Assembly (NCBI GenBank): GCA_046563655.1
Contig: CM102283.1
Span: forward strand, 7,812,001 to 7,876,000
Length of the DNA: 64,000 bases
Origin: Yuukianura sp. NJ FZ-2021
Lineage: Eukaryota
Reading direction: 5' to 3'
The position numbers and the translations under genes are program-made. Shown piece by piece: positions 18,443-64,000 of this stretch. Every line of letters begins with the position of its first letter. Position 1 is the first letter of the stretch. The notes under the pieces are model-generated. The model saw only the letters and a program-made list of their open reading frames with translations. It was not told the origin of the DNA and did not search any database.

Positions 18443-37841
<19,399 letters not shown>

Positions 37842-43029: not shown

Positions 43030-43959
43030 TTAAATGTCTTTCAGTAAAATAGGTTTGTTTTGAGGATAGTGGTAAATGTTTGAACTTCTAAACATTTGAT
43101 CACAGTCCTTTGTAAAATATGTTCTACTGAACACTGATCTGCCAAAAGTGTTTTGACATCCCAGAATGTTGATGGCTTCAGATGCAATTGTTTGTCTAAA
43201 GTAGTAATTGTTCCCTTTGACCTCCACTAGTCCATCCAGGATGACATTCGTAAGCCTGCCACAACACGTTCCAGCTTCCAGGAGCAGAGCCAGTCCTTGC
43301 TTGGGATTATTATGAACTGCCAAATTGTGCATTTTTGTACGATCTCCACTTTCGACTAAGATTCCGGAACTGGCGTTGGAAAAACTGATGTCCCGAAGAA
43401 CGTTGTCGTTTCCTTGAATGACGATTCCTTCCTTGACGTTTGATATCGAAATGGATCCAAATTCATTTTCGTTTCCTAGAATTGCAATAGCTTGAAGTGC
43501 TTTGTTAACTCCCAGTGATTCTCCATGATTATTGTTTCCTTCTATAACTATTCCGTCTTCAATAGCCGAAATGTTTAGATCTTTCAGGAACCAATAATCT
43601 CCGCGAATCAGAATGCCAGTAGTGTTGGCTATAATGCGGGTTGTGGCTGCTCCGTCGGCTTGTTGCCGCCTAAGATAATAATGAGAGCAGTATTTAGAAA
43701 TCATAAAAGTTTTCAAAACAAATCTTTTTGATTGTCCGTCTTACCCGATGACTTGAATTGGATGACTCTTCTCTCCGCTGTGCTCCATTGCAAAATCTCC
43801 AGCGTAGTCGATAGCTTCCAGTTGAATTGTGTCTCCAGGGTTTGAAGCGTCGATAGCTTTTTGAAAATCTTCTGCAGATTTGGGGTTGGACAGCCTGCAA
43901 TCCACTGCAATAAAAGTGCTGCATACCACCAAAAGTACTACGAAAATATTGGCAGTCAT
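43030..43959 (-). CDS. Secreted right-handed parallel beta-helix (pectin-lyase-fold) protein; exons 43959-43745 and 43669-43030
   Basis: Signal peptide MTANIFVVLLVVCSTFIAVDC; beta-helix cap FQKAIDASNPGDTIQL..SGEKSHPIQVIG; PbH1-like repeats GIVIEGNNN, AIAILGNEN, GIVIQGNDN, GILVESGDR; one phase-2 GT-AG intron. Confidence 0.8.
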
Positions 43960-44790: not shown

Positions 44791-45576
44791 CTAACCATGC
44801 TTCCTGCGTTCGTACAATGCCATGCCAATGCCAAAGCAACAAAGACAAAGGAATATGGATAGAATGACGCAGGAGAGGATCACGATGACCATGATGAGCC
44901 AATAGGCAAAGAGAAATAGGTTGGGGTTGCAGTAGTAGTTGACCTCATCTGGCCCCACGCTGTACGGTTCGAATTTGACATTCGGAGAAAGTCGAAAGAC
45001 CACGAATACCAAGAAGATGAATACCACCGTTTTCACCATTCTGGCAATGTACACGACGTAGTAGAACCAGTCCTTCTTCGGCTTTGTCACCTTGACCTCT
45101 CCTCCGGCTTCATCCGTTGTCACCGCCACCATGAACCGACTTCGTCCTTCTATGAGACTGAAGAAGACAGCAAGGACTCCACTGGCAATTAGCATGGGTG
45201 CCAACCTCTCATCTCCAGGGCAATTTTCTTTGTCCAAGTATATGATTCCAATGACAATACAAGCAATGGAGATACCGTTGACCAACGTCAGAACGACTAC
45301 TAAAGAGAGAAGAGAACAGCAAAGGGTGCAGGCCAATCCCATTGCACCTCCTTCCCAGTTGCTACATACTCTAGTGCTTCTGCGCAGAAGGATATGTTTG
45401 TTTTTGAAAGTGCCGCCGCTGACAATTTGTCCATCGCCATCCTCCTCTTGTCCACCGAAATGCCCGTCAATGATTCTCTGTGCTTCTGGATAAGTTGTGT
45501 CCTTCGGTTGACCTTGCGGTGTCAACTGAATACCTGTGTCATTTTCAACCCGGTATTCGACTACTAGATCCAGTGT
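44791..45576 (-). CDS. TMEM272-like four-TM membrane protein; 5' exon not located
   Basis: IACIVIGIIYLDKENCP..PMLIASG and YCNPNLFLFAYW motifs with four hydrophobic segments. The frame is open back to acceptor tttttag|ACA at 45576. Confidence 0.7.
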   Translation of the reverse strand, partial: TLDLVVEYRVENDTGIQLTPQGQPKDTTYPEAQRIIDGHFGGQEEDGDGQIVSGGTFKNKHILLRRSTRVCSNWEGGAMGLACTLCCSLLSLVVVLTLVNGISIACIVIGIIYLDKENCPGDERLAPMLIASGVLAVFFSLIEGRSRFMVAVTTDEAGGEVKVTKPKKDWFYYVVYIARMVKTVVFIFLVFVVFRLSPNVKFEPYSVGPDEVNYYCNPNLFLFAYWLIMVIVILSCVILSIFLCLCCFGIGMALYERRKHG

Positions 45577-46558
45577 CTAAAAAAAGTGGAAAAAATTAAA
45601 TCAGTGACATGTTGTTACTCTCACACTCTCCAAAATTTTCGAATTGTTACAATTGTATAAACCGCTCGCTCCAACTATTCAAGATTTACCATTGTTATAC
45701 TTCGATTGTTCGCAAGCAAGACAGAACGTTCAATTCAACTGTACTGTAACGTCACTTGACATCAATAACGTTCGACTCGTTTGTTTATTCAAAGAAGAGC
45801 AGAAAATGGATTTACTCTTCGAAGGTGGTTACGCTTCGCACTTTGTTCTAAAACCTTCAAAAACCGAGTGCATCCGATGCAACTACTTGGCGAACATACG
45901 CTAAAGACTGCTTTTTACTATGTGCTAAATGCCAAACGAAGCCTGATAGAGCTTGGACTGAAAGCTTTTTTTAGAGAATGTAAACAGAGAACTCCTATTC
46001 GGGACGACCTTCAATGGTCCAGAGTCCAGATCAATGTTCAGTCTGGACTGAAGTGACTTGGGAAAGCCTTATCTTCTTATCTGGAAGCTTTCACTTCCAT
46101 CCTGGTTTAGATCCATCAACAATCGAAACAAAAAACTTTCCCTCGTCAAAAAAACATTCCCACCAATATTTTTTTTTAACTTTTAAAATGCTATTTCCGG
46201 AAAAAGAATTACCAAAAACTGAACAAAGTCCCGGAAAAATTGTGAATGAAGGTTTGGATTTGGGAGTATAGTGCAGTACAGGTTTAAACCCGCTGGTGTT
46301 AAAAGCTGTCCATACAGTTGTCGTTTCCAGTACAATGTTGAAGTGACAGTCATTAACTGTGCAGTAAATAGTGCGTTGATCATGGTACGCACTAATTCAT
46401 GAAACTTAAATTCTTGTTCTGCATATAAGCTTCAATCCCAGAACAAAATTTCTCCAGTTGCACTTAGTATTAGGTGAACTGACAGACTGGTTTTCGAATT
46501 ATCTTTGGAAATTGACTTTTATAAAAACAATAATTTTAAAAAGTTTTCAAGCTACAGA

Positions 46559-47054
46559 ATGAATTTTCTAACAATTTTTGGAATTTTGGGAGTATTCGCA
46601 GTATCTAGTATTCAGAGCATCCGGATGCAAAAAGATATCGATATTTGGAATGGTCTTGGTGAGAATTTGAATTACTTTAAAAAGTTTACACAGTCAAGCT
46701 AAAGAGCTAATCTCTCATAAAAATTATTCAATTCCAGATGGAAGCGAAATCTACATCTTCCGCAGTATGTGCCATTTTAGTATTCTTTTGAAAACTAAAA
46801 ATTATTCAAGTAACTGAATTTGTACAGGAAATGCGATCCCACCCCATGTTCCCCCTCCTGGTCACACTTTGGCGTCTGACCTCGTGAAGAACGTTGTTCA
46901 AGGAACTTTTAACCACATCATTAACGGGCAGCACTCAGGACAAGGTCATGGTGAACCAGGTCAACCGCCAATGCCAATTAATGGGAAAGGACCAGCACCG
47001 GCAACTTTGAAACCAAATGGCGGAGACTCCGTTGGTGCAGCAGCCGCATCTTAA
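46559..47054 (+). CDS. Small secreted Pro/Gly/His-rich orphan protein; exons 46559-46658, 46738-46764, 46828-47054
   Basis: Signal peptide MNFLTIFGILGVFAVSSIQS; two phase-1 GT-AG introns join in frame to ..PPHVPPPGH..GQGHGEPGQPP..AAAAS*. Confidence 0.75.
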
Positions 47055-47616: not shown

Positions 47617-47678
47617 CCAATGTTAGTATAAATTACCTGAATTGTGCTGGATGGAAATTCATTCTAAGCAGTTCAGTC
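47617..47678 (+). promoter_or_regulatory. Core promoter of the repeat-precursor gene (CCAAT, TATAAA, Inr-like)
   Basis: CCAAT at 47617, TATAAA at 47627, TCATTC at 47659 and TCAGTC at 47673, with ATG at 47691. Confidence 0.5.
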
Positions 47679-47690
47679 AACACAGTCATC

Positions 47691-50140
47691 ATGAAGGTAG
47701 TCCTTGCCATCATCCTTTGTGTCACCCTTAGTGACGCTTTCAAGCTTCCTGCAGCTCCAGCCATTTCAAATCAAGTAACCAGAACAAAATTTTAAACAAA
47801 ATATCTCGTGTTGTAATTTTCTAACAGTGTGCTTCTTACGTAGGAATCTAAAGTGAATGCTGGTCAAGATGCCACTGGAATTTCTCACGGAGCTGCATCT
47901 TCATTGGGTATGATTTCCGAACAATAAAGTTGAACTCAAATTGCTGAAACTGATTTATAAACAACTCTTAATTACACAGGAGGTGCTGGAGGAGCCATCT
48001 CTAACCAAAAATCAGGTTTGGAAAAAATTAAAACCCAGGTTATTTTTTGAAACCAATTTCAAAATTTTTTGTACAACTTACTTTTCGTTTTCATCAGGCA
48101 CTAAAGTTGGAGCCGGTGGAATTGGCGTTGCCGATGGTGAAAGTCGTGCCAAAGTCGTTCCAGATCAAGTCGGAGGAATGTTGAACAAGTATGGCGTTGG
48201 TAAGGGTCGTCCCGGAGGCGTGGCAGTTTCTAACCAGGAATCCAAAGTTCTTGTAGGAGAGGGAGGCACTGGTAATTTCAAAACAAACATGTTGAATAAA
48301 CTTCAAAATAAAACTAATACTTCGCTCACCGTTGATTGTTTTTGGTTTGACAGGTATTAGTAACGGCGTTTCCACTGCAGAAGGTATGCAGCAGCAACCT
48401 GCAACAGAGAGAAAGAAAAACGTGTCAATTTTATTTTGAAAAAAAAAATTATAGGTCAAAATGGAGCCATCGCCAACCAGAAGAGTGTTGCCCTCGGAAA
48501 AGCTGGTATAAAGCGATTTTATAAAACAAATTTTCTTTTGAGGTTTAAAATAAACTTTAACATTTTCAAATGTTAAAAATTTTAGGAGCTACAGTTGTCT
48601 CTGAGGGACAAGCCTCCTCATCCACCATTGGTAATCTTAAAATGTGAAAAATTCCATCACTTTCGGCTTCAATGGTACAAGTTGCACGTGGATTTCTAAA
48701 ATTTATTGAATTTTTACAGCGAAGAGAAGCACGGAAATTACCGGCAATGGCACTTACACTCCCCCCGGAGGAGTTCGAGGTAATTTGACAGAATAATGTT
48801 AATGAACAGAAAACGTTGTCAATGTGGGTATGTTTAAAAATTAGTGGCAAAGAACGTGCGTCATCATAAGCATGGTAGTGGAGCAGCAGTTTCAAATCAG
48901 GAGGTATACGCATGAAATCGTCATTTCAAGTTATGTTTAATTCCTGTTCTAACTACTGACAAACATCATTTCATTTTAGAGCATCGTGAAAGGAGGACAT
49001 GGCAGTGATATTACTGGGATTTCTCATGGCGCTGCAACATCACAAGGTTTGACCTTTGACCTATCATTTGCAAAACTGTTATAAATTTAGTGACAAAGAG
49101 TTTTGCATTTCAGGAGGAAGCGGTGGAGCCGTGGCTAACCAAAAGTCAGTTGCAACTGCCGATGGACCTAGAAATACTTTGGTATAAACCTTTTTAATCC
49201 ATGAAAGTATTTTTTCGAAATTTAAAATTTTAATGTATGTTAAAAATTTAGGTATCTGACGGAGTTGCATCTGCATCAAGTGAGTTCAAATTACTGTAAA
49301 ACTTTTCCATTTTTACTTCTGTACGAACTAATTTTCCAAAAACTTTTCTTTGTAGCTGTTCGGGACGACAGAGGTAAAGTATCGAAAACTGTTAAATAAA
49401 CTTCAACTTACGTGAACAAAATATTACATTTTTTCAATTTCGTTTCAGAGGCTCGATTCCTTGGACACAGGACACACGGTGGCCCAGCCATAGCCAACCA
49501 AAACTCGATTGCAGAGACAAGCGGTTTTGGCAGCTCTGCAGATGCTACTGGATTGGCCCAAGCTAAAAGCAATGGCTAGTTAAAAAACAACATAGAAATC
49601 AATTAATTTGAAACACAGTTTTTTTATACGTAAAATAAAGGTGGACTTGCTCATGCCAGTCAAAACAGTGTCGCCACTGCCCGTGGACCAGGCAGCTCAG
49701 CATCTTCATCCGGTTCAGCCTTTGCCAGCTCCGATTGTAAGGCCCCTAGAAATTGAAAATAAAATTTAACAAAAAATTATTTAAAATTACTTATTTCAAA
49801 ATTATTTCAATTTGCAGACAAGCGTGATGTGGCAGCCGTGAGCGCTGATACAAAGTCCACCAGCGACGTTATCTCGGATGCTATTGCCAAAACTACAAGT
49901 GACGCTGCAAAGAAAATCATTAAGGACCCAAGTGCCCTTATTGCCTCCTCCAATGTGACTACCACTAACCGTAAGCTAATAAAAAGTTTATCACTTGCAA
50001 TTATAATATATATTTACATTTAAATAATGAAACTATTAGCTGCGCTCTTCATTTTCAGACTAACTGCAGAAACAGAAACGGAAATCACAAATGAAACAGA
50101 AGTTAACAACAACTTCGCCCAATACATTGGAATTTTATAG
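47691..50140 (+). CDS. Secreted Gly/Ala/Ser-rich internal-repeat precursor, 17 small exons: 47691-47774, 47844-47907, 47980-48015, 48098-48271, 48354-48383, 48455-48505, 48586-48630, 48720-48779, 48845-48903, 48980-49046, 49114-49181, 49252-49279, 49356-49373, 49449-49574, 49641-49736, 49818-49970, last exon (acceptor ambiguous) to 50140
   Basis: Signal peptide MKVVLAIILCVTLSDA. Exons join in phase and give eight copies of an A(I/V)(S/A)NQ(E/K/N)S-type motif, the last degenerate (AHASQNS). One donor is non-canonical (GC at 49575). Confidence 0.82.
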
Positions 50141-50224
50141 AACAAATTGAATTGATTCGGAAAATTAAAAAAATGCAATTTCATCAAAAAAAAACTTTTT
50201 CTAATGTTGTCACCTTCTTTAATT

Positions 50225-51530
50225 TTAAACGTCTTGAAATCCAATAGTATCTTTGCGTCGCCCAGGATTTCTCATGTAGTAAATCTCCTGAAATTTCAAA
50301 AGCAAATCAGAATTTGGCAGAATGCTAATTAAGAGTTAGTTAGCTAATACGATTTGTCTTACGTGAATGACAGCACAAGCAAGCAGAAGTGCTTTGGCGA
50401 CTGGGTCAATGTTAACGTAGTTTTCTGCCAGTGACAAGGCGAAGTTGACTGGTCCTTTGGCAAATTCAAAATCCAGATTGCGGCAGTTACTGATTTTGGC
50501 AATCAAAGATTTTTCAACTGGATCATCCGAAATGACTTCCAGCCCAGAATTGAAATTAGGATGGCCCATGAGGGTGGGTCTCCTTGTAAAGGCTCTGAAC
50601 GTGTCTTCGCGTCCCGTGACCTTGACTTTGTGGTTCATTCCAGGTGATGGACGATTGAGATATTCGTAACACTGTGCCTTAGGATGCTCCGTAACGATTT
50701 CTCCCATCTTGTAATCAAACACAGTTGCACTGATGATATGTTTCTGAAAAAATTCGACAAAATTTTTTGAAGTTAACGTATGAAGAAAGAAATTGCGTTG
50801 AAGAAAAACCTTGGTTTCACAATTTGAACACGGAAATACTGGAGCGGATCCAATGCAACCTTCGAAGGTCATGCACGTCATTCCGTTCGGTCCCACCAGC
50901 GCATAGTGAAAGTAACGCTTGGAAGCAAATCCTAAATTTTGAAATTACTAAGTTTTTACCAAATTAAAAGTGAAATCTTCGATTCTGTGTATATACTTGG
51001 TGCTTGGTTGACCATGACGTAAATACGTTTTCCACTGGCCAAGATAATGTTGAAGGTAGGTCGCCGTTCATCTAGGATTTAAAAGTTAATTAACTAAAAT
51101 AATTATCAGTTAGAAGCTTTGCATTTAAAAATGCCTACAATGTCACCTTTCAAATCATACTCGACAAGGCCACGCTGAATTTCTTGGAAGAAGAAGTTCT
51201 TCTCGCTGCACAAGGCTTCCAAACCCTGAGGAATTGCTGGAAGTAGTTCAAAATCACGATTATTTTTAAAGATTTTCCCAACAACTACTGAACTTTGTAA
51301 ATTTTTTGTTCATGCATAACCTGTAATTGACTTTCCCAGGATTGAATCGTCCTTTGAAGCATCACTGTCATTGTTGTTACTTTGCTGAATGTTTTGGTTG
51401 GGCGAATTATTATTCTCTGGCTCTGCGTTGAATTTGCAACAAATTTAACAATAGAATTTAAAAATTTGAAGAAACTAAAGAACATGAGCATTCTAAATAA
51501 TTTGAACAGAAGCTTACCGACGGCCGACAT
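50225..51530 (-). CDS. Divergent phospholipid scramblase/Tubby-C-like protein, multi-exon
   Basis: Spliced model MSAV|EPENNN..|AIPQGLEAL.. resembles scramblase PPGLEYL. C-terminal DPVAKALLLACAVIH|EIYY resembles the scramblase terminal helix. Stop at 50225. Confidence 0.55.
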
Positions 51531-52156: not shown

Positions 52157-55100
52157 ATGCGACTCCCTGAGTTCAGTATTTTCGCAGGACTTTGGATAGC
52201 ATTAGGCACTCTACAACACAGCCGAAACATGAACCCATCTCCGTACATTTTCGAGACAAAGAAGTAAAGCTTTCTAAAAAAAACTTCCCTATTAACTTTA
52301 ATAACTTTAAGAATAAAATTGAAAATAACTTAATAATCTTGTTTTATACGTTTTAGACTACCTTCGCACAACAGGAATATGGCGTCGGTTGGAAACGGTC
52401 ACGTGGCTACTGTCATATTCAACGACACTGTGTACATGAATGGACTTTACAATGGATTCAAAGGAGAAAGTCACCGTGCTAGAATTCCGTCACGGAACAA
52501 CATTCGAGTGTACGCTGAAACTGCTGCGGAAGTATCCAACCACACTTTTACTCTAAACGTACACAAAGGAGTTTTTACTGAAAAATTTAGTACTCCGACG
52601 CATCAAGTCCGACTCCACACCTTTGCTCATCGCTACTTCCACAAAATATTGGTCACTCAAGTTCATGTAACTCGCACTTCTGCTGAAGCAAGTAAGTTCA
52701 TGCCAATACCAATTGATCTTAAATTTTTAGTTATTTAATTAATTAATTCCTATCAATCACTTTAGAATCTTTAACTCTGACGGTAACTAGTGATCCAGGG
52801 GAACCCAGCAGTGACATTACTTTTGACCAGGAGGAAACGTTGTACATGACGCAATACGCCAGCTTCAATAAAAATTTTACAACAGAAGCCATCGTCACTT
52901 GTGGTCACACCAATATCATCGAAAATCCGGAATATCAAAAAACAACTTCCACGGTTTGCGTCGCCGCTACAAAGGTTGTCAATTCTACCTTCAAATTTTT
53001 TGAAAAAAGTTAATGCAATTCCAAGACACGCTACTAAATATAAGGAAATTTTAAAGTAAAATAAAAACGTTTTTTTTAATTTTAGCCACCGAGGTCGTTA
53101 ATTATCGATTCACACGTCGAAGAAGCCTGGTACACATTTTTCTCTGCTTACGACACCACTAAGGCCGGTGCCCTAGAAGATTTCTATGCCGGTAACGTTA
53201 ACTAAGGATTGATTTTTCAAAAGTTTTTAAAAAAATGTTTTGTGTTTCTAGTTGCCAAAATACTAGAAACTGTAGGAGGTCACCAGGATTTGTACAATTC
53301 CCATACATCAGCATGGGAAGCTATCTGGGACGACGGTAGGATTGAAATTGACGGAAATTTGGAACTGGCCAAAACTGTCAACGCTGCTTTCTACTACATC
53401 ATCAGTTCGTTACCAATTATAACCGAAACGCACAGTCCAATCAGTCCCTACTACGGTCTAAGTCCCAGTGGTTTAAGTCGTGGAGCTAAACTTAAAGACT
53501 ACCAAGGCCATAGCTTCTGGGACACTGAAATATGGATATTCCCGGTTATTTTAAATTTCTACCCAGCAAAAGCCCGGGAATTACTGCAGTACCGTGTAAA
53601 CAACTTCAAAGTGGCCAAGGATCATGCAAGAGAAACTGGCTGGGAAGGAGCTCGGTTCCCCTGGGAAAGTGCTTTTACTGGAAGTGAAGTCACGCCGGAG
53701 TGTTGTCCAGCACAAAGTGGCCTTCAAATTCATGTCACCGGCGACATTAGTTTTGCCATAAAACAGTATTTTACTGCTACGCTTGACATTGATTGGCTAA
53801 CAAACCAAGGTCAAAAAGTTTTGAACACAACCGAGGCCACAAACCCGTGCAATCTAGTTAGAGCGATTGCCGAATTTTGGGTTTCGCGCGGAACGTTCAA
53901 TGTCCGTTCGAAAAAGTACGACATTAATGGTAAAACGGACATTTTTCAAATTTGTTAACAGTATTGTTAAAAACTGTTGCAAGCATTAAGTTAACATTAC
54001 TTTTTAATATCATCGTAGGCGTAATGCCACCCGATGAAGACAATTATCCAGTGAACAATTCCGTTTACACCAACATCGTTGCTGCGAATTCCATTTTCTT
54101 TGCAAAGTAAAATTTTGCTTTGCTGCATAAAAATTTACGCTTCACAAGTTTATAAATGTGGTAAAAATTTAATTGTGCTAAACGTAATCCTGGAAATGTT
54201 TAGGTACTTGGAGAATTATTGCCTGGACAAAATGGAGCCAATACCGGAAGAGTGGTTAGAATATGCAAAGTCATTGACAATTCCATTTGACGCTACACTA
54301 AACTACCACCCAGAGTACGATGGCTACAACATTGGAACACAAATTAAGCAAGCGGATGTAGTTCTCATAGGGTATCCACTACTACACCAAATGAACGAAT
54401 CTACAAGGCGGAACGATTTAAAAATTTATCAAAATGTGACACGAAGTACAGGCCCAGCGATGACATGGGCGTGAGTACACTTCGAACAAAATCACACGAA
54501 ATTTTCAAAAATCTAGAACAAATTCTAAACTAAATTGGCTTAACATTGAACAGAATGCATACCATTGGCCATCTAGAAATTAACGAAACTGCGGAAGCTG
54601 AAACTTTGTTTCGTAGAAGCTATAAACCATATTTGCGAAAACCGTTTTACGTAACACTCAGAAATTAGCTGCCCATTTTCAAGATTCAAAATTAGACATA
54701 TTTTGTATCGTTTTTTTTTTAAACATTTTTTAAGACTTGGACAGAATCCCCACCACCAAAGTACGGTGCAAATAATTTCCTGACTGGAATGGGAGGATTT
54801 CTGCAAGCAATCATCAACGGCTACGCTGGCCTACGACTCTACCATGACAAATTGGTATTCACAAACCCCAAAGTCCCCCCGCAGTCAAAAAAGCTTAAAC
54901 TCATTGGTAAAAATAAACCTAGCAAAAAATTCATAGTATTTAATTTACCCAAAATTTTGAAACTGGTGAAAACTTTGAAAATTTAGGTCTGAAATACTTG
55001 GGCAGTTCACTAAACCTGATCGTGTCAGATACGTACGTAGAAATTTCAACTAACAAAACTAACAGTGAAATTCCGCTTATTCTGGACCTCAATGGAGAAA

Positions 55101-55310: not shown

Positions 55311-57173
55311 TCACTTGGTCTTCTTTTCTGGAGACACAGATTTCGGATTTTTCCGAAATAACCCAACTAACTTTTTGAAAATAAATTTGATCAGTAAGCG
55401 CAACAGTGCAATTATGACTAACAGCACTACTACTATGACCCCAACTACATCCAAGGAATGATACTCAAAAAAATTCAAATCTCGTCCAGCCGAACGCAAG
55501 TGCAGTGCACCTACAAAGTGAAAACAAAGCTTCGAAACAGCTTCTTCGTTTAAAAAAAAGTAATGAAAGTTAAGCTGACCTTTGTGACGAATGATGTACT
55601 CTGTCCAGTACACTGCTCGATCCAGCGGCCTGTCGATTTGGTCTCGAAATATGTTGGATAGCTTTTTAACGTTGGCCATGTAGGACGGTTCGTTGAGCAC
55701 TTTTGAAACTGCCGCCAAAAATGTTTCCTCGGAAAGCTTGATGTAGTCCACAGTTATTCCAATGCCAGCTTCCCCCATCTCCTTCATGTTCATTTCTTGA
55801 TCAGAAAACAACGGAATTCCTACAAGTGGCACGCCATGGTACACAGCTTCAGTAGTACTGGCAAATCCTCCGTGGGTTACAAACAGTCTAGAAAATGGTT
55901 AATCACAATCACAATAATGCCACTGTTCAATTACTTTTACTTTCTACTTTTGTATTTTTATACTGGAAGTACCTGATTTTCGGATGGCCAAGCAGATCTG
56001 GTTGTGGAAGCCATTTGCCCAGTTTCACATTGGCGGGTAAATTCGGAATGGGATCGCCGTTCCACTTCCAAATGACTTGTTGTTTCAATTTTGAAAAAGC
56101 TTTGAGTAGTCCATCAACTTTTTCTTTCGAAATGTCATTGGATTTTAGTGCTGAGCCCATGCTGAACAGAATGAAGCCATCCGAGCCTTTGTTTACGAAG
56201 TCCTCCAAATCCTGGAATTCAAAAAAAAAGTTCAACTTAATCACCTTTAGTCAAAATTTAAGTTTCACATATTTTCAAAATTCTAAAAATTGGTATTACC
56301 TTTGGTATCGGCTTGGCTGGGCGACAGTGCATTCCTCCCACTTCAACAATATCCGGCAGAAATGGTCGTTTGCCGGAAATGCTGAAATGGCTATTGGACA
56401 GCATCAGACTCGTGCTTTTGTAGAACTCCACAATACTTGGCAAGGTTGAATCATTCAAAATTTCACGGGATTGCGCCTCCAGTGCTGGATACGCTTTGAA
56501 GTGCAGCATTCCTCGAACAAACGCTTCGATCAAAAATGTTGTCAATCGCTGCAAGAACGTCATTCGCTGCGGGAATCCCGTGAACATAAATGGATTGAAC
56601 GACGGAGCTAAAAATTAAAAAAATCAATTAACATTTCAAAATTTTGAAACAACTAAATATTGACTTGCGTGAAGGGTTCCCATAATACGACGTAGCGAAT
56701 GGAATTGCAGCAATTGGACTAAAAATGATAATCGGTGCTTTGAAATTGACCATGGCAAATGGCCCTACACACTCGTTGAACACTATTGGAATAATGACGA
56801 GGTCAAAGGTCTCGTTTTTAAGGGCCTTGAAAGCGGGTGACTTAAGTCCCTCCATACAAACCGTGCTGTAGCTCATGAGCATCGGCACTGGCTGAACACT
56901 TTCTCCGCGTTCCTTCATTTCAAAAATGTTCGGAATTTTGAGAACCGTGCTCAGCTCAAACGTCAAAATCTCCGTCATGTTCGGTACATTTTTTCCAAAT
57001 GTCACCGGCGACACTACAGTGACTTGATGTCCCCTGGACGCCAGTTCTTCCAGCAGCGGTTCCAGTGGAATCCGATGACTCTGCGTTGCCATAAGTTGTA
57101 ACGCCAGGATCTTAGCGGCTGATCCATTTTGTACCAGTGTAAGCAGTACCACCACGACACAAAATGTCGCCAT
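55311..57173 (-). CDS. UDP-glycosyltransferase (UGT, GT1), multi-exon
   Basis: Signal peptide, SH catalytic region, LASRGHQVTV, signature WLPQPDLLGHPK..FVTHGG..EAVYHGVPLVGIPLFSDQ, C-terminal TM helix and ER-retrieval tail EKKTK*. Confidence 0.95.
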
Positions 57174-58131
57174 TTTGAAAAAACGGCAATTTAAGCGCGA
57201 AAAATGGAAATTTCTTAAAAGTTCAAATTATGCTTCAGAAATCAGAAGTTTTAGACCAGTCGAGTGCCAGTTCTGAACTCAACTGGACAATCTCAATGAT
57301 AAAAACCCATGACAAACGCATCTTTTGTCTTCATCTTTCCATTGTTCCTCCAAATCAATCTTTGTCCTCAAATTATCTGCCATACAAAAACGCTCATTCT
57401 CTCCTTTCATCCACATGACTTCAGAAAGTCATCAGTCATCTAATCACGCCAAGTCAAATATCTGAAAAAACTGAAAATCTAGAAACTTTGTCCTTGGATT
57501 TTACTCGTTTTTGTTTCAGTAATTAATAAAAAAAACTTAGTTTTACGCAGACTTACTTGTTATGGACGTACAGTTTCGCAACACCTTCAATTTCTTCATC
57601 CAACTTCCAGAATCTTGATTGTCTGGTAGTAGATCCAAGTAGGCGGGCACATTTGAGGCACTTGGTCAAAAATCCACTCACCCATCATCATCATCATCTT
57701 CAAAGATTCGAACACATTATTTAAGTTATCTCTAGACTGTCAATTAACTAAACACGATTAATTGAAAAACACGACACTTAGACACTTACTTAATCCTAAA
57801 CAGTAAAATCTAAAACACTTTTTGAAAAAACACATTGATGTTGATCAGGGGGGAGAACAAGGCACGGCTAAAGACCCTCGTGGTAACAATTACAACTTCC
57901 TTGCTTTTTCCTAACTTAAAACTTAACTATCCTACCTACCTGGTCAATTACTTTTAGACTCACAGTTGAGCTTTAAACTGTTTAGAACAGACATGTCTTA
58001 TACCAAGACAAGGAAGATTTGTTTCTAACTCATAGTATATGAAACTTAAGGTGAAGATGGAGCAGAAATTTCAGATGATGAGCTGTTTAGCAGTAGTTTC
58101 TTGCCGTGGATTCAATCACACTCGGTTGTAG

Positions 58132-63420
<5,289 letters not shown>

Positions 63421-64000
63421 CTGAAAATTTATCCACAGGGATTAAGATCAACCTTTCACTTTTTACATTTTTCATGTTCAAGATCAGCATCACAGTGCTA
63501 TGGATTACTTGTCAGCGTTAGTTTAGGATTAAGTGCATGTCCAAGCTTATGAGTGCCAAATCCAACAAAAACTGCCAAGGCTTTTTAGTGCATTTAAGCA
63601 GTTTGAGAGTGAAACTTACTCCGACGTTCCTCCAGTAAAAATGAATAGGAATCAAAAGCAGCACCGAAGAAGCATCCACTTCCCATTGAATCAGAACCAG
63701 CAGAATCAAAAACATAATTTACAGGTAAGACTTACATGCGCATGCGTATTAAAAAGTGCGAAAAAGTTAAAAAAAAATACCCAATAGCTAAAAAAAGGAG
63801 AATTAAAAAAAAATCAAACACCCAAAAATTGAAATCCCAACGTTGGCAACAAGGAAGCAGAAAATCGGAAGAAGTGAAAATATCAAATTCAAAAACAACT
63901 AAAAAAAATATCACTCCACGTAGTTTTCAACCCAATTTCCAAATCGTTTCGTCTCTCCGATTTCAAAATTTGAATTCCCTGCAAATCGAATTCCTTTTCT

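What the first reader, a model, noticed from the sequence alone, without database searches (positions are those of the whole stretch)
47691..50140. Hidden 17-exon secreted polyprotein of four NQ-ladder beta modules with basic linkers
The ORF track misses most of it because most exons are under 100 nt (smallest 18 nt). After the signal peptide come four modules of about 60 aa, each with two related halves: PAISNQESKVNAGQDATGISHGAASSLG/GAGGAISNQKSGTKVGAGGIGVADGESRAK; VAVSNQESKVLVGEGGTGISNGVSTAEG/QNGAIANQKSVALGKAGATVVSEGQASSST; AAVSNQESIVKGGHGSDITGISHGAATSQG/GSGGAVANQKSVATADGPRNTLVSDGVASAST; PAIANQNSIAETSGFGSSADATGLAQAKSNG/GLAHASQNSVATARGPGSSASSSGSAFASSD. Linkers carry convertase-like sites (AKR, RDDREAR, YKR) and His/Arg-rich leaders (RHHKHG, GHRTHG). 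Alternating small residues, Gly turns, near-invariant N-Q and no Cys in the mature part suggest stacked beta-hairpins or a solenoid. Candidate roles are a curli-like functional amyloid, glue or silk, an ice-binding protein, or a processed Gly-rich antimicrobial. I recognise no family.
Basis: partly seen in the sequence, partly recalled or inferred. Interest (0 to 1): 0.8.

Follow-up and report, generated by a model that had tools for sequence, protein, structure and literature searches.

The report
Unannotated secreted beta-repeat protein gene
A real, spliced 17-exon gene in what is probably a springtail genome encodes a secreted protein built from eight related 30-residue units; it belongs to no described family and its function is still unknown.

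Summary
Joining 17 exons by coordinates (47691-50140, + strand) gives one open frame of 409 codons. There are 16 introns of 65-99 nt: 15 GT-AG and one GC-AG. Exon GC is 0.50 against 0.26 in introns. One soil-metatranscriptome contig joins exons 4-9 across exactly the five predicted introns. A colinear homologue on metagenome contig L001 is 54% identical, shares six phase-1 intron positions, and has pN 0.33 against pS 0.70.

The product has a signal peptide and no Cys in the mature part. It has eight units around an A-[IV]-[SA]-N-Q-x-S core, alternating as a and b types in four near-neutral modules, joined by basic, His-bearing linkers.

No known family matches: Pfam, PDB sequences, Foldseek and the protein atlas all gave nothing significant. 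A profile search of 1.84 billion proteins found only four unnamed environmental fragments.

AlphaFold gives low-confidence beta-hairpins and a disordered linker. Function is not shown. My best guess is a self-associating extracellular beta-sheet material, possibly cut at dibasic sites; an immune-peptide precursor and a disordered hydrophilic protein are live rivals.

Uncertain parts of the model: the C-terminal exon, the GC donor of intron 14 and the 18-nt exon.

The parts
47627..47632 (+). TATA-box-like hexamer, 59 nt before the start codon
   Evidence: Motif scan of the 600 nt upstream. It is a consensus match only; its function was not tested.
47691..47774 (+). Exon 1: start codon, signal peptide (about 47691-47738, 16 residues) and the start of unit 1a
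   Evidence: Model. Mean Kyte-Doolittle hydropathy of residues 3-13 is 3.3. Homologous N-termini are seen in L001 and P0005. The cleavage site is inferred by the -3/-1 rule and was not computed.
47844..47907 (+). Exon 2: rest of unit 1a
   Evidence: Model. There is no RNA evidence. In L001, P0004 and P0005 this part is contiguous with exon 1.
47980..48015 (+). Exon 3: start of unit 1b (phase 1-1)
   Evidence: Model. In L001 this part is fused with the next exon.
48098..48271 (+). Exon 4: end of unit 1b, linker 1, start of unit 2a
   Evidence: Model. The donor junction is seen in the RNA contig. It is 49% identical to P0001.
48354..48383 (+). Exon 5: end of unit 2a
   Evidence: Both junctions are seen in the RNA contig. 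L001 has the same intron positions.
48455..48505 (+). Exon 6: start of unit 2b (51 nt, as in L001)
   Evidence: Both junctions are seen in the RNA contig. The corresponding L001 exon, 1138-1188, is also 51 nt.
48586..48630 (+). Exon 7: end of unit 2b (45 nt, as in L001)
   Evidence: Both junctions are seen in the RNA contig. The corresponding L001 exon, 1249-1293, is also 45 nt.
48720..48779 (+). Exon 8: first half of linker 2, with the conserved KR
   Evidence: Both junctions are seen in the RNA contig. tblastn shows 68% identity over 19 residues to L001.
48845..48903 (+). Exon 9: basic, His-rich second half of linker 2 and the start of unit 3a
   Evidence: The acceptor junction is seen in the RNA contig, which ends here. 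Model.
48980..49046 (+). Exon 10: rest of unit 3a
   Evidence: Model only. L001 has no intron before this part.
49114..49181 (+). Exon 11: start of unit 3b
   Evidence: Model only.
49252..49279 (+). Exon 12: end of unit 3b
   Evidence: Model only.
49356..49373 (+). Exon 13: 18-nt micro-exon in linker 3 (phase 1-1, so it could be skipped in frame)
   Evidence: Model only. Its GC is 0.61 inside AT-rich sequence. Without it the intron would be 169 nt, against 65-99 nt for all the others.
49449..49574 (+). Exon 14: rest of linker 3 and unit 4a; it ends at a GC donor (49575-49576), immediately followed by an in-frame TAG
   Evidence: Model. Splicing here is inferred. Exon 15 is a clear b-type unit and can only be joined in phase 1.
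49641..49736 (+). Exon 15: unit 4b
   Evidence: Model. Unit similarity.
49818..49970 (+). Exon 16: KR site and non-repeat C-terminal part with moderate amphipathic-helix signal
   Evidence: Model. The hydrophobic moment reaches 0.54 at 100 degrees. No Pfam match.
50070..50140 (+). Alternative: acceptor at 50058, exon from 50059, stop at 50061-50063
   Evidence: Model. Its GC of 0.32 is unlike the other exons. The two acceptors were read from the sequence. No RNA evidence decides between them.
50164..50169 (+). ATTAAA, a possible polyadenylation signal
   Evidence: Motif scan. It is a consensus match only.

Best explanation
This is a genuine, transcribed and spliced protein-coding gene of a soil arthropod, probably a springtail.

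The product enters the secretory pathway through a 16-residue signal peptide. The mature chain of about 390 residues has no Cys, and 64% of it is Ser, Thr, Gly, Ala, Val or Lys. It carries eight related units of about 30 residues. Each unit has an A-[IV]-[SA]-N-Q-x-S segment, a Gly-rich turn and a second segment with small residues at alternate positions. The a-type and b-type units alternate to form four near-neutral modules. Flexible, basic, His-bearing linkers separate the modules, and three of the four module ends are followed by a KR or RxxR motif.

Shown: the gene, its splicing over five junctions, its conservation under constraint, the unit architecture, and the absence of any described relative.

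Inferred: each unit forms a beta-hairpin. Outside the cell, the small-residue faces would let hairpins of the same or neighbouring molecules pack into sheets. The protein would then act as a self-associating extracellular material, such as a coat, matrix, glue or fibre component. The linkers would serve as spacers, as pH- or metal-sensitive joints, or as convertase cleavage points.
For: Gene:
- One frame runs through 17 exons with canonical sites; exon GC is 0.50 and intron GC 0.26.
- Five of 16 junctions are seen in an RNA-library contig, with GT..AG on the + strand.
- The homologue L001 is colinear. It is identical at 119 of 222 aligned residues, has pN 0.334 against pS 0.698, and has six introns at the same positions and phase.

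Secretion:
- The N-terminus is hydrophobic, and the same is true in L001 and P0005.

Units:
- N-Q-x-S occurs 7 times, against at most 3 in 20000 shuffles.
- The a and b types separate in the score matrix. Units 2a and 3a are reciprocal best matches between the two species, so the modules are older than the species split.
- Units 2a (22 of 29 identical) and 3a (19 of 31) are the best conserved segments. Linker 1 is the worst, at 7 of 21.

Beta tendency:
- AlphaFold on P0003 gives six strands of 10-12 residues, pairing as three hairpin-like units, with block pLDDT of 59-70 there. The linker is below 50.
- The N-Q segments are also strands in the second model.

Material-like character:
- 63.9% of the mature chain is S, T, G, A, V or K. 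This is the same six-residue bias reported for barnacle cement proteins cp19k and cp43k (passage in PMC9097139). One cp19k forms amyloid fibres (abstract and passage of PMC10410215).
- Modules carry net charge -1 to +2, and linkers +1 to +5 with 5 of the 9 His.
Against: - No experiment or expression pattern bears on function.
- Both structure models are of low confidence: mean pLDDT 59.8 and 50.5, with four of five models near 40 in each job. The second model did not make the second strand of unit 1b.
- No structural neighbour is significant: 0 of 58 Foldseek matches reach E 0.001.
- The chain is hydrophilic, with few aromatic or large hydrophobic residues. That fits an intrinsically disordered protein as well.
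- The resemblance to cp19k is one of composition only. The profile search of 1.84 billion proteins returned no barnacle or other named protein.
- The KR site conserved between species fits a processed precursor as well as a material.
- Eleven of 16 junctions and the C-terminus lack RNA support.
Confidence: 0.4

Rival explanations
1. It is a precursor of several Gly-rich host-defence peptides. Convertases would cut after the KR and RxxR motifs and release pieces of about 60-145 residues that act on microbes. Insect attacin-type peptides and multi-peptide precursors work this way (recalled knowledge).
For: - It has a signal peptide and repeated modules.
- KR follows module 2 and is kept, as RKR, in L001.
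- RDDREAR follows module 3 and YKR follows module 4.
- The linkers are His-rich and basic.
- The promoter has a TATA box.
- The attacin superfamily is described as Gly-rich peptides of more than 50 residues (passage of bioRxiv 10.64898/2026.03.03.709459).
Against: - Modules are near neutral (-1 to +2), not cationic.
- There is no dibasic site between modules 1 and 2 in the window, L001 or P0003.
- No Pfam attacin or other antimicrobial-peptide family matched any of the 18 pieces scanned at E up to 10.
- No GGGRNYYYYY site occurs in the 600 nt upstream.
- dN/dS near 0.2, with colinear orthology, does not suggest the fast turnover common in such peptides. This last point is weak.
Confidence: 0.2
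2. It is an intrinsically disordered, hydrophilic secreted protein with no stable fold. It would act as a hydrating, lubricating or mucin-like layer, or as a desiccation protectant. The conserved N-Q segments would be short binding or modification motifs rather than strands.
For: - Hydropathy is low throughout the mature chain and there are few aromatic residues.
- Both structure models have low pLDDT.
- The protein atlas recognition values are low, at 1191 and 1118.
- There are four N-x-S/T sequons, and the C-terminus is rich in Ser and Thr.
Against: - The best conserved parts are whole units of about 30 residues, not short motifs: 22 of 29 identical in 2a.
- Unit length and the a/b alternation are kept across species.
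- The same segments come out as strands in two separate predictions.
- Disordered linkers usually drift, as linker 1 does (7 of 21 identical).
Confidence: 0.2
3. It is an ice-binding or antifreeze protein whose flat beta-sheet faces of small and polar residues bind ice.
For: - The host is a soil arthropod, probably a springtail.
- Springtails make secreted Gly-rich antifreeze proteins (listing and start of abstract of PMC7033094).
- The units have small-residue faces.
- Ice-binding proteins appear among the non-significant Foldseek matches.
Against: - Those Foldseek matches have E of 0.56 or more and TM of 0.16 or less, so they mean nothing.
- Gly is only 15%.
- No three-residue periodicity stands out: the lags scanned began at 5, and the top lags were 32, 46-49 and 78-79. 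The Gly-x-x polyproline-II pattern of known springtail antifreezes (recalled) is therefore not evident.
- No T-x-T ladders were seen when reading the units.
Confidence: 0.07
4. It is not a gene. On this reading, the open frame is a chance product of picking splice sites in a compositionally odd region.
For: Eleven of 16 junctions rest on the model alone. No annotated protein matches.
Against: - Five junctions lie in one RNA contig.
- A colinear homologue is 54% identical and shares intron positions.
- Three further environmental homologues exist.
- Exon and intron GC differ strongly.
- The motif count lies far outside the shuffles.
Confidence: 0.02

Closest known systems
Barnacle cement proteins cp19k and cp43k
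   Same: [quoted passage not shown] One cp19k self-assembles into amyloid fibres (PMC10410215).
   Different: No sequence relation was detected: the profile search of 1.84 billion proteins gave no named hit. I did not compare the two sequences directly, because no cp19k sequence was available from a tool. The 30-residue a/b units with the N-Q core and the four-module layout are not described for cp19k in what I read.
Bacterial functional amyloids CsgA (curlin repeats) and FapC
   Same: Both are secreted, and both have imperfect strand-turn-strand repeats with conserved Asn/Gln and Gly (the curlin features are recalled, not tested). FapC was the top Foldseek row.
   Different: That match is not significant: E 0.04, probability 0.06, TM 0.14. 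No Pfam curlin-repeat hit appeared at E up to 10 on any of 18 pieces. This is an animal gene with 16 introns, and its units are longer and separated by basic linkers.
Gly-rich insect antimicrobial peptides and multi-peptide precursors (attacin superfamily and the like)
   Same: Both are secreted, with Gly-rich units of more than 50 residues and dibasic motifs between units (passage).
   Different: The modules here are near neutral. No Pfam match was found. One of the three linkers between modules lacks a cleavage motif.
Springtail antifreeze proteins
   Same: The host group is probably the same, and both are secreted and rich in Gly and Ala (listing of PMC7033094).
   Different: Gly is 15% here. 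No Gly-x-x pattern was seen in the units as read. The lag scan started at 5, so it did not test period 3 directly. The defining features of the known antifreezes are recalled, not taken from a call.
Pfam DUF4774 (PF15999)
   Same: One window piece, exon 4 residues 38-57, matched profile positions 15-34 of 56.
   Different: The match has E 0.17 and 12.1 bits against a cut-off of 25. None of the 9 homologue pieces matched it. No paper in the library mentions the family.

Membership tests
Pfam DUF4774 (PF15999) | Score at or above the gathering cut-off of 25 bits | tested here: not met
   Of 18 pieces scanned, 1 matched, at 12.1 bits and E 0.17. None of the 9 pieces from homologues matched. The spliced whole protein could not be scanned, because joined sequence cannot be handed to the tool.
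Curlin repeat / CsgA-type functional amyloid | Match to the curlin repeat profile, or a significant structural match to a solved functional amyloid | tested here: not met
   No such Pfam hit at E up to 10. The FapC Foldseek match has E 0.04 and TM 0.14, from a model of mean pLDDT 59.8.
Curlin repeat / CsgA-type functional amyloid | Forms cross-beta fibres | not testable with these tools
   This needs ThT binding, electron microscopy or fibre diffraction of recombinant protein.
Ice-binding proteins (solved beta-helical types) | Significant fold match | tested here: not met
   The best such row has E 0.56 and TM 0.12.
Springtail polyproline-II antifreeze proteins | Very high Gly content in Gly-x-x tripeptide repeats (feature recalled) | tested here: not met
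   Gly is 15.1% of the mature chain. The units as read show no tripeptide repeat.
Attacin-type Gly-rich antimicrobial peptides | Match to the attacin or related Pfam profiles | tested here: not met
   None of the 18 pieces matched at E up to 10.
Convertase-processed polyprotein | Dibasic or RxxR motifs at every unit boundary | tested here: inconclusive
   Motifs follow modules 2, 3 and 4 but not module 1. The one after module 2 is conserved in L001.
Convertase-processed polyprotein | Cleaved products exist | not testable with these tools
   This needs peptidomics or N-terminal sequencing.
Barnacle cp19k-like cement proteins | Bias to S, T, G, A, V and K | tested here: met
   63.9% of the mature chain, against the description in PMC9097139.
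Barnacle cp19k-like cement proteins | Sequence homology | tested here: inconclusive
   The library-wide profile search gave no named hit. No direct comparison was made, and I cannot confirm that cp19k is in that library.

The most novel reading that the evidence does not exclude
This would be an unrecognised family of arthropod extracellular beta-hairpin-repeat proteins that assemble into cross-beta material, a functional amyloid or glue of soil hexapods convergent with barnacle cement. The family would be invisible to genome annotation because its genes are broken into exons of 18-70 nt.
Probability: 0.2. Interest if true: 0.7.

Novelty: new variant of a known kind. Interest (0 to 1): 0.45.

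Why it matters
If the model is right, a conserved, expressed, secreted protein family is absent from every annotated proteome in a library of 1.84 billion representatives. It appears there only as four metagenome fragments. That is a concrete example of gene families lost to annotation because of very short exons.

If the protein is a self-assembling material, it would give a second arthropod lineage with a cement-like composition. It would also give a simple 30-residue hairpin unit to study. If it is instead a peptide precursor, it would add a new host-defence family in a group whose immunity is little known. As it stands, it is an orphan with no function shown.

Tried and rejected
- Word-indexed search with exon 4, longer proteins: none of 60 candidates scored E 0.01 or better.
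- Same tool with a unit profile: one hit, P0001, at E 0.21. It proved to be real once its contig was read.
- First metagenome scan, with alignment A4: 596 pattern matches, none confirmed. The second scan, with P0001, found L001 only.
- Protein atlas on exon 4 and on L001 exon 2: no usable hit.
- PDB sequence search with the unit profile: 0 hits at E up to 10.
- Foldseek against PDB: 58 rows, none at E 0.001 or better.
- P0002, a 719-residue Cys-rich repeat protein, reached E 8.5e-07. It matches only profile positions 12-26, and I judged it spurious by eye.
- A sub-threshold Pfam Keratin hit on P0004 (E 0.059) lies mostly on the non-coding read-through part.
- Complex prediction with three copies of P0003: no answer.
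- Paralogues in the window: tblastn of the model found nothing outside 47691-50140 better than E 0.1.
- DNA-level tandem repeats: only short chance arrays.
- NF-kappaB-type motif in the 600 nt upstream: none.
- The whole genome is not held.
- Earlier findings of the scan: nothing, by place, sequence or words.
- Papers: 'DUF4774' gave 0. 'springtail' with 'microexon' gave 0. Of the 8 papers listed for Collembola with 'secreted', 'glycine-rich' and 'repeat', none appeared from title and abstract to describe such a protein.
- Only one sequencing run held any part of the stretch, with a share of 0.05. I draw no habitat or abundance claim from it beyond the junctions it shows.
- MAFFT alignment A1 put the second-strand pieces on top of the first-strand pieces. 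I took this as a hint of a 14-15-residue sub-repeat but did not test it further.
- The spliced protein could not be scanned, folded or searched as a whole, because joined sequence cannot be handed to the tools.
Full report
**1. Is it there?**

The region is eukaryotic: short AT-rich introns separate GC-richer exons. I joined 17 exons by coordinates: 47691-47774, 47844-47907, 47980-48015, 48098-48271, 48354-48383, 48455-48505, 48586-48630, 48720-48779, 48845-48903, 48980-49046, 49114-49181, 49252-49279, 49356-49373, 49449-49574, 49641-49736, 49818-49970 and 50070-50140. This gives a 1230-nt frame of 409 codons plus a stop.

- Every acceptor is AG. Fifteen donors are GT and one is GC.
- Introns are 65-99 nt.
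- Exon GC is 0.50, intron GC 0.26 and window GC 0.375.
- Fourteen of 17 exons are under 100 nt, and the smallest is 18 nt.

**2. Independent support**

Only one public run held any part of the stretch, a soil metatranscriptome with a word share of 0.05. When laid, it gave one 357-nt contig in six colinear pieces from 48162 to 48903. It has 5 other letters in the 355 laid. Its five joints skip 82, 71, 80, 89 and 65 nt, each GT..AG on the + strand. These are exactly introns 4-8 of the model. The other 11 junctions have no RNA evidence.

A unit profile then found P0001, an unnamed 106-residue metagenome ORF. Its 1677-nt contig, L001, was fetched. L001 carries a colinear homologue that runs off the contig end. 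It has, in order, a signal peptide, units 1a and 1b, linker 1, units 2a and 2b, linker 2 and unit 3a. My seven-exon model of it gives 246 residues.

- It is identical to the window protein at 119 of 222 aligned positions.
- pN is 0.334 against pS 0.698. After correction, dN is 0.44 and dS about 2, which is saturated.
- Six phase-1 introns sit at the same places as in the window gene, and two exons have identical lengths (51 and 45 nt).
- Window introns 1, 3 and 9 are absent from L001.

The frame is therefore conserved under constraint, and the gene is real.

**3. Anatomy**

- The first 16 residues are a hydrophobic signal: mean hydropathy of residues 3-13 is 3.3. The same is seen in L001 and P0005. 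The cleavage point is inferred, not computed.
- The mature chain has no Cys or Trp. Gly is 15.1%, Ala 14.5% and Ser 13.3%. [quoted passage not shown]
- Eight units start at residues 24, 55, 104, 134, 196, 229, 275 and 307.
- The N-Q-x-S core occurs 7 times, against at most 3 in 20000 shuffles. The eighth unit has S-Q-N-S instead.
- In a BLOSUM62 score matrix, the a units (1a, 2a, 3a) and the b units (1b, 2b, 3b) form two groups that hold across species. Units 4a and 4b are divergent.
- Window 2a and L001 2a, and window 3a and L001 3a, are reciprocal best pairs (scores 100 and 97). The four-module layout therefore predates the species split.
- Modules carry net charge +2, -1, -1 and -1. The linkers carry +2, +5 and +1 and hold 5 of the 9 His.
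- KR follows module 2 and is RKR in L001. RDDREAR follows module 3 and YKR follows module 4. Linker 1 has no such site in the window, L001 or P0003.
- Identity between the two species by segment is 22 of 29 for 2a, 19 of 31 for 3a, 15 of 29 for 1a, 15 of 30 for 1b, 16 of 30 for 2b, 16 of 32 for linker 2 and 7 of 21 for linker 1.
- Exons 3-8 and 13-16 are all phase 1-1 and multiples of three. Exon skipping or duplication would therefore keep the frame.

**4. Weak points of the model**

- Intron 14 has a GC donor, and an in-frame TAG follows it at once. I accept the splice because exon 15 is a clear b-type unit that can only be joined in phase 1.
- Exon 13 (18 nt) could be skipped in frame. Its GC of 0.61 argues for it, as do the two flanking introns of 76 and 75 nt, which would otherwise be one intron of 169 nt.
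- Exon 17 has GC 0.32, against 0.45-0.61 for all the others. The acceptor at 50058 has the better pyrimidine tract and would end the protein one codon after exon 16, with the stop at 50061-50063. I lean slightly to this shorter end.
- A TATAAA lies 59 nt before the ATG, and an ATTAAA lies at 50164.

**5. What family?**

None was found.

- Pfam at E up to 10 on 9 window pieces gave one sub-threshold hit: DUF4774, 12.1 bits against a cut-off of 25.
- The same scan on 9 homologue pieces gave only a spurious Keratin hit, at E 0.059.
- The protein atlas gave no usable hit, twice.
- A 29-position unit profile built from window and L001 pieces was run by HMMER over 1,835,955,588 representatives. It gave 5 proteins at E 0.001 or better.
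- Four of these are real by eye. P0001 is one. P0003 has 128 residues with about three and a half units. P0004 and P0005 carry a signal peptide plus unit 1a. One hit, P0002, is spurious.
- All four real hits are singleton, unnamed metagenome ORFs.
- A full-length annotated relative with several units would have scored far above these fragments. I therefore conclude that none is in that library.
- The PDB sequence search gave 0 hits.

**6. Structure**

AlphaFold on P0003 with a six-row alignment gave mean pLDDT 59.8 and pTM 0.46; the other four models scored 36-42. It shows six strands of 10-12 residues at the two halves of each unit, and a linker below pLDDT 50. A second job, on L001 exon 2, gave pLDDT 50.5 with only the two N-Q segments as strands. 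Foldseek against PDB gave no match at E 0.001 or better. The top rows were FapC at E 0.04 and TM 0.14, then ice-binding proteins at E 0.56 or more; they carry no weight. The structural evidence is therefore a weak, partly reproducible tendency to beta-hairpins.

**7. Context**

- There is no paralogue in the window.
- The neighbours are ordinary animal genes: a GH65 glucosidase, a UDP-glycosyltransferase and a protein kinase.
- The best named relatives of comparable length for the GH65 exon are two springtails, at 53-54% identity. Four longer Anopheles proteins top the list by E-value at 39-46% identity, and Daphnia magna is at 47%.
- No hit is near 100% identity. The window is therefore probably from a springtail or a near relative whose proteins are not in the collection. 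This rests on one exon.

**8. Reading**

Shown: a real, spliced, conserved gene for a secreted repeat protein of an undescribed family.

Inferred: the units are hairpins with small-residue faces, and the protein self-associates outside the cell as a material. The composition matches the six-residue bias described for barnacle cp19k and cp43k. At least one cp19k forms amyloid fibres. This is analogy only.

The near-neutral modules and the linker 1 that lacks a cleavage site argue against a classical cationic peptide precursor. The conserved KR site keeps that reading alive. Low hydropathy and low model confidence keep a disordered reading alive. The ice-binding idea has nothing specific in its favour.

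**9. Verdict**

The family is new to the databases searched, but the kind of protein (a secreted, low-complexity arthropod repeat protein) is familiar. Supplementary files of papers were closed; none of the papers I read appeared to bear on this family.

Noticed in passing
window 46478-47054 (+): A small gene lies just upstream. One open frame starts with a signal-peptide-like hydrophobic stretch, and a second frame (46818-47054) ends in a Pro/Gly/His-rich tail. There is no Pfam match. It may be another unannotated secreted protein.
   Followed up: partly
window 43030-43740 (-): A 236-residue open frame has repeated segments of about 22 residues rich in Gly, Asn, Ile and Val. By eye it recalls parallel beta-helix repeats. 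No Pfam hit at E 0.01.
   Followed up: partly
window 28372-33618 (+): These exons look like a nuclear receptor. There is a two-zinc-finger DNA-binding domain, followed in a later exon by a basic box like that of the FTZ-F1/NR5A group. I recognised this by eye and did not test it.
   Followed up: no
window 52337-54474 (+): A GH65 family glucosidase gene (Pfam PF03632, E 2.3e-34). Its best named relatives of comparable length are two springtails at 53-54% identity.
   Followed up: yes
window 55311-57227 (-): A UDP-glycosyltransferase gene (Pfam UDPGT, E 4.9e-49 on one exon).
   Followed up: partly
window 58792-63511 (-): A protein kinase gene (Pfam Pkinase, E 2.3e-33 on one exon). The upstream exons look PKN-like by eye.
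   Followed up: partly
window 50336-50944 (-): A 202-residue open frame convergent with the finding's 3' end. No Pfam match at E 0.01.
   Followed up: partly
window 44791-45576 (-): A 261-residue open frame with several long hydrophobic stretches, probably a multi-pass membrane protein. No Pfam match.
   Followed up: partly
window 47980-49970 (+): Ten of the 15 internal exons (3-8 and 13-16) are phase 1-1 with lengths divisible by three. Alternative exon use could therefore change unit number without breaking the frame.
   Followed up: no
alignment A1: MAFFT laid the second-strand pieces of the units over the first-strand N-Q pieces. This hints that each 30-residue unit is itself an old duplication of a segment of about 15 residues.
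   Followed up: no
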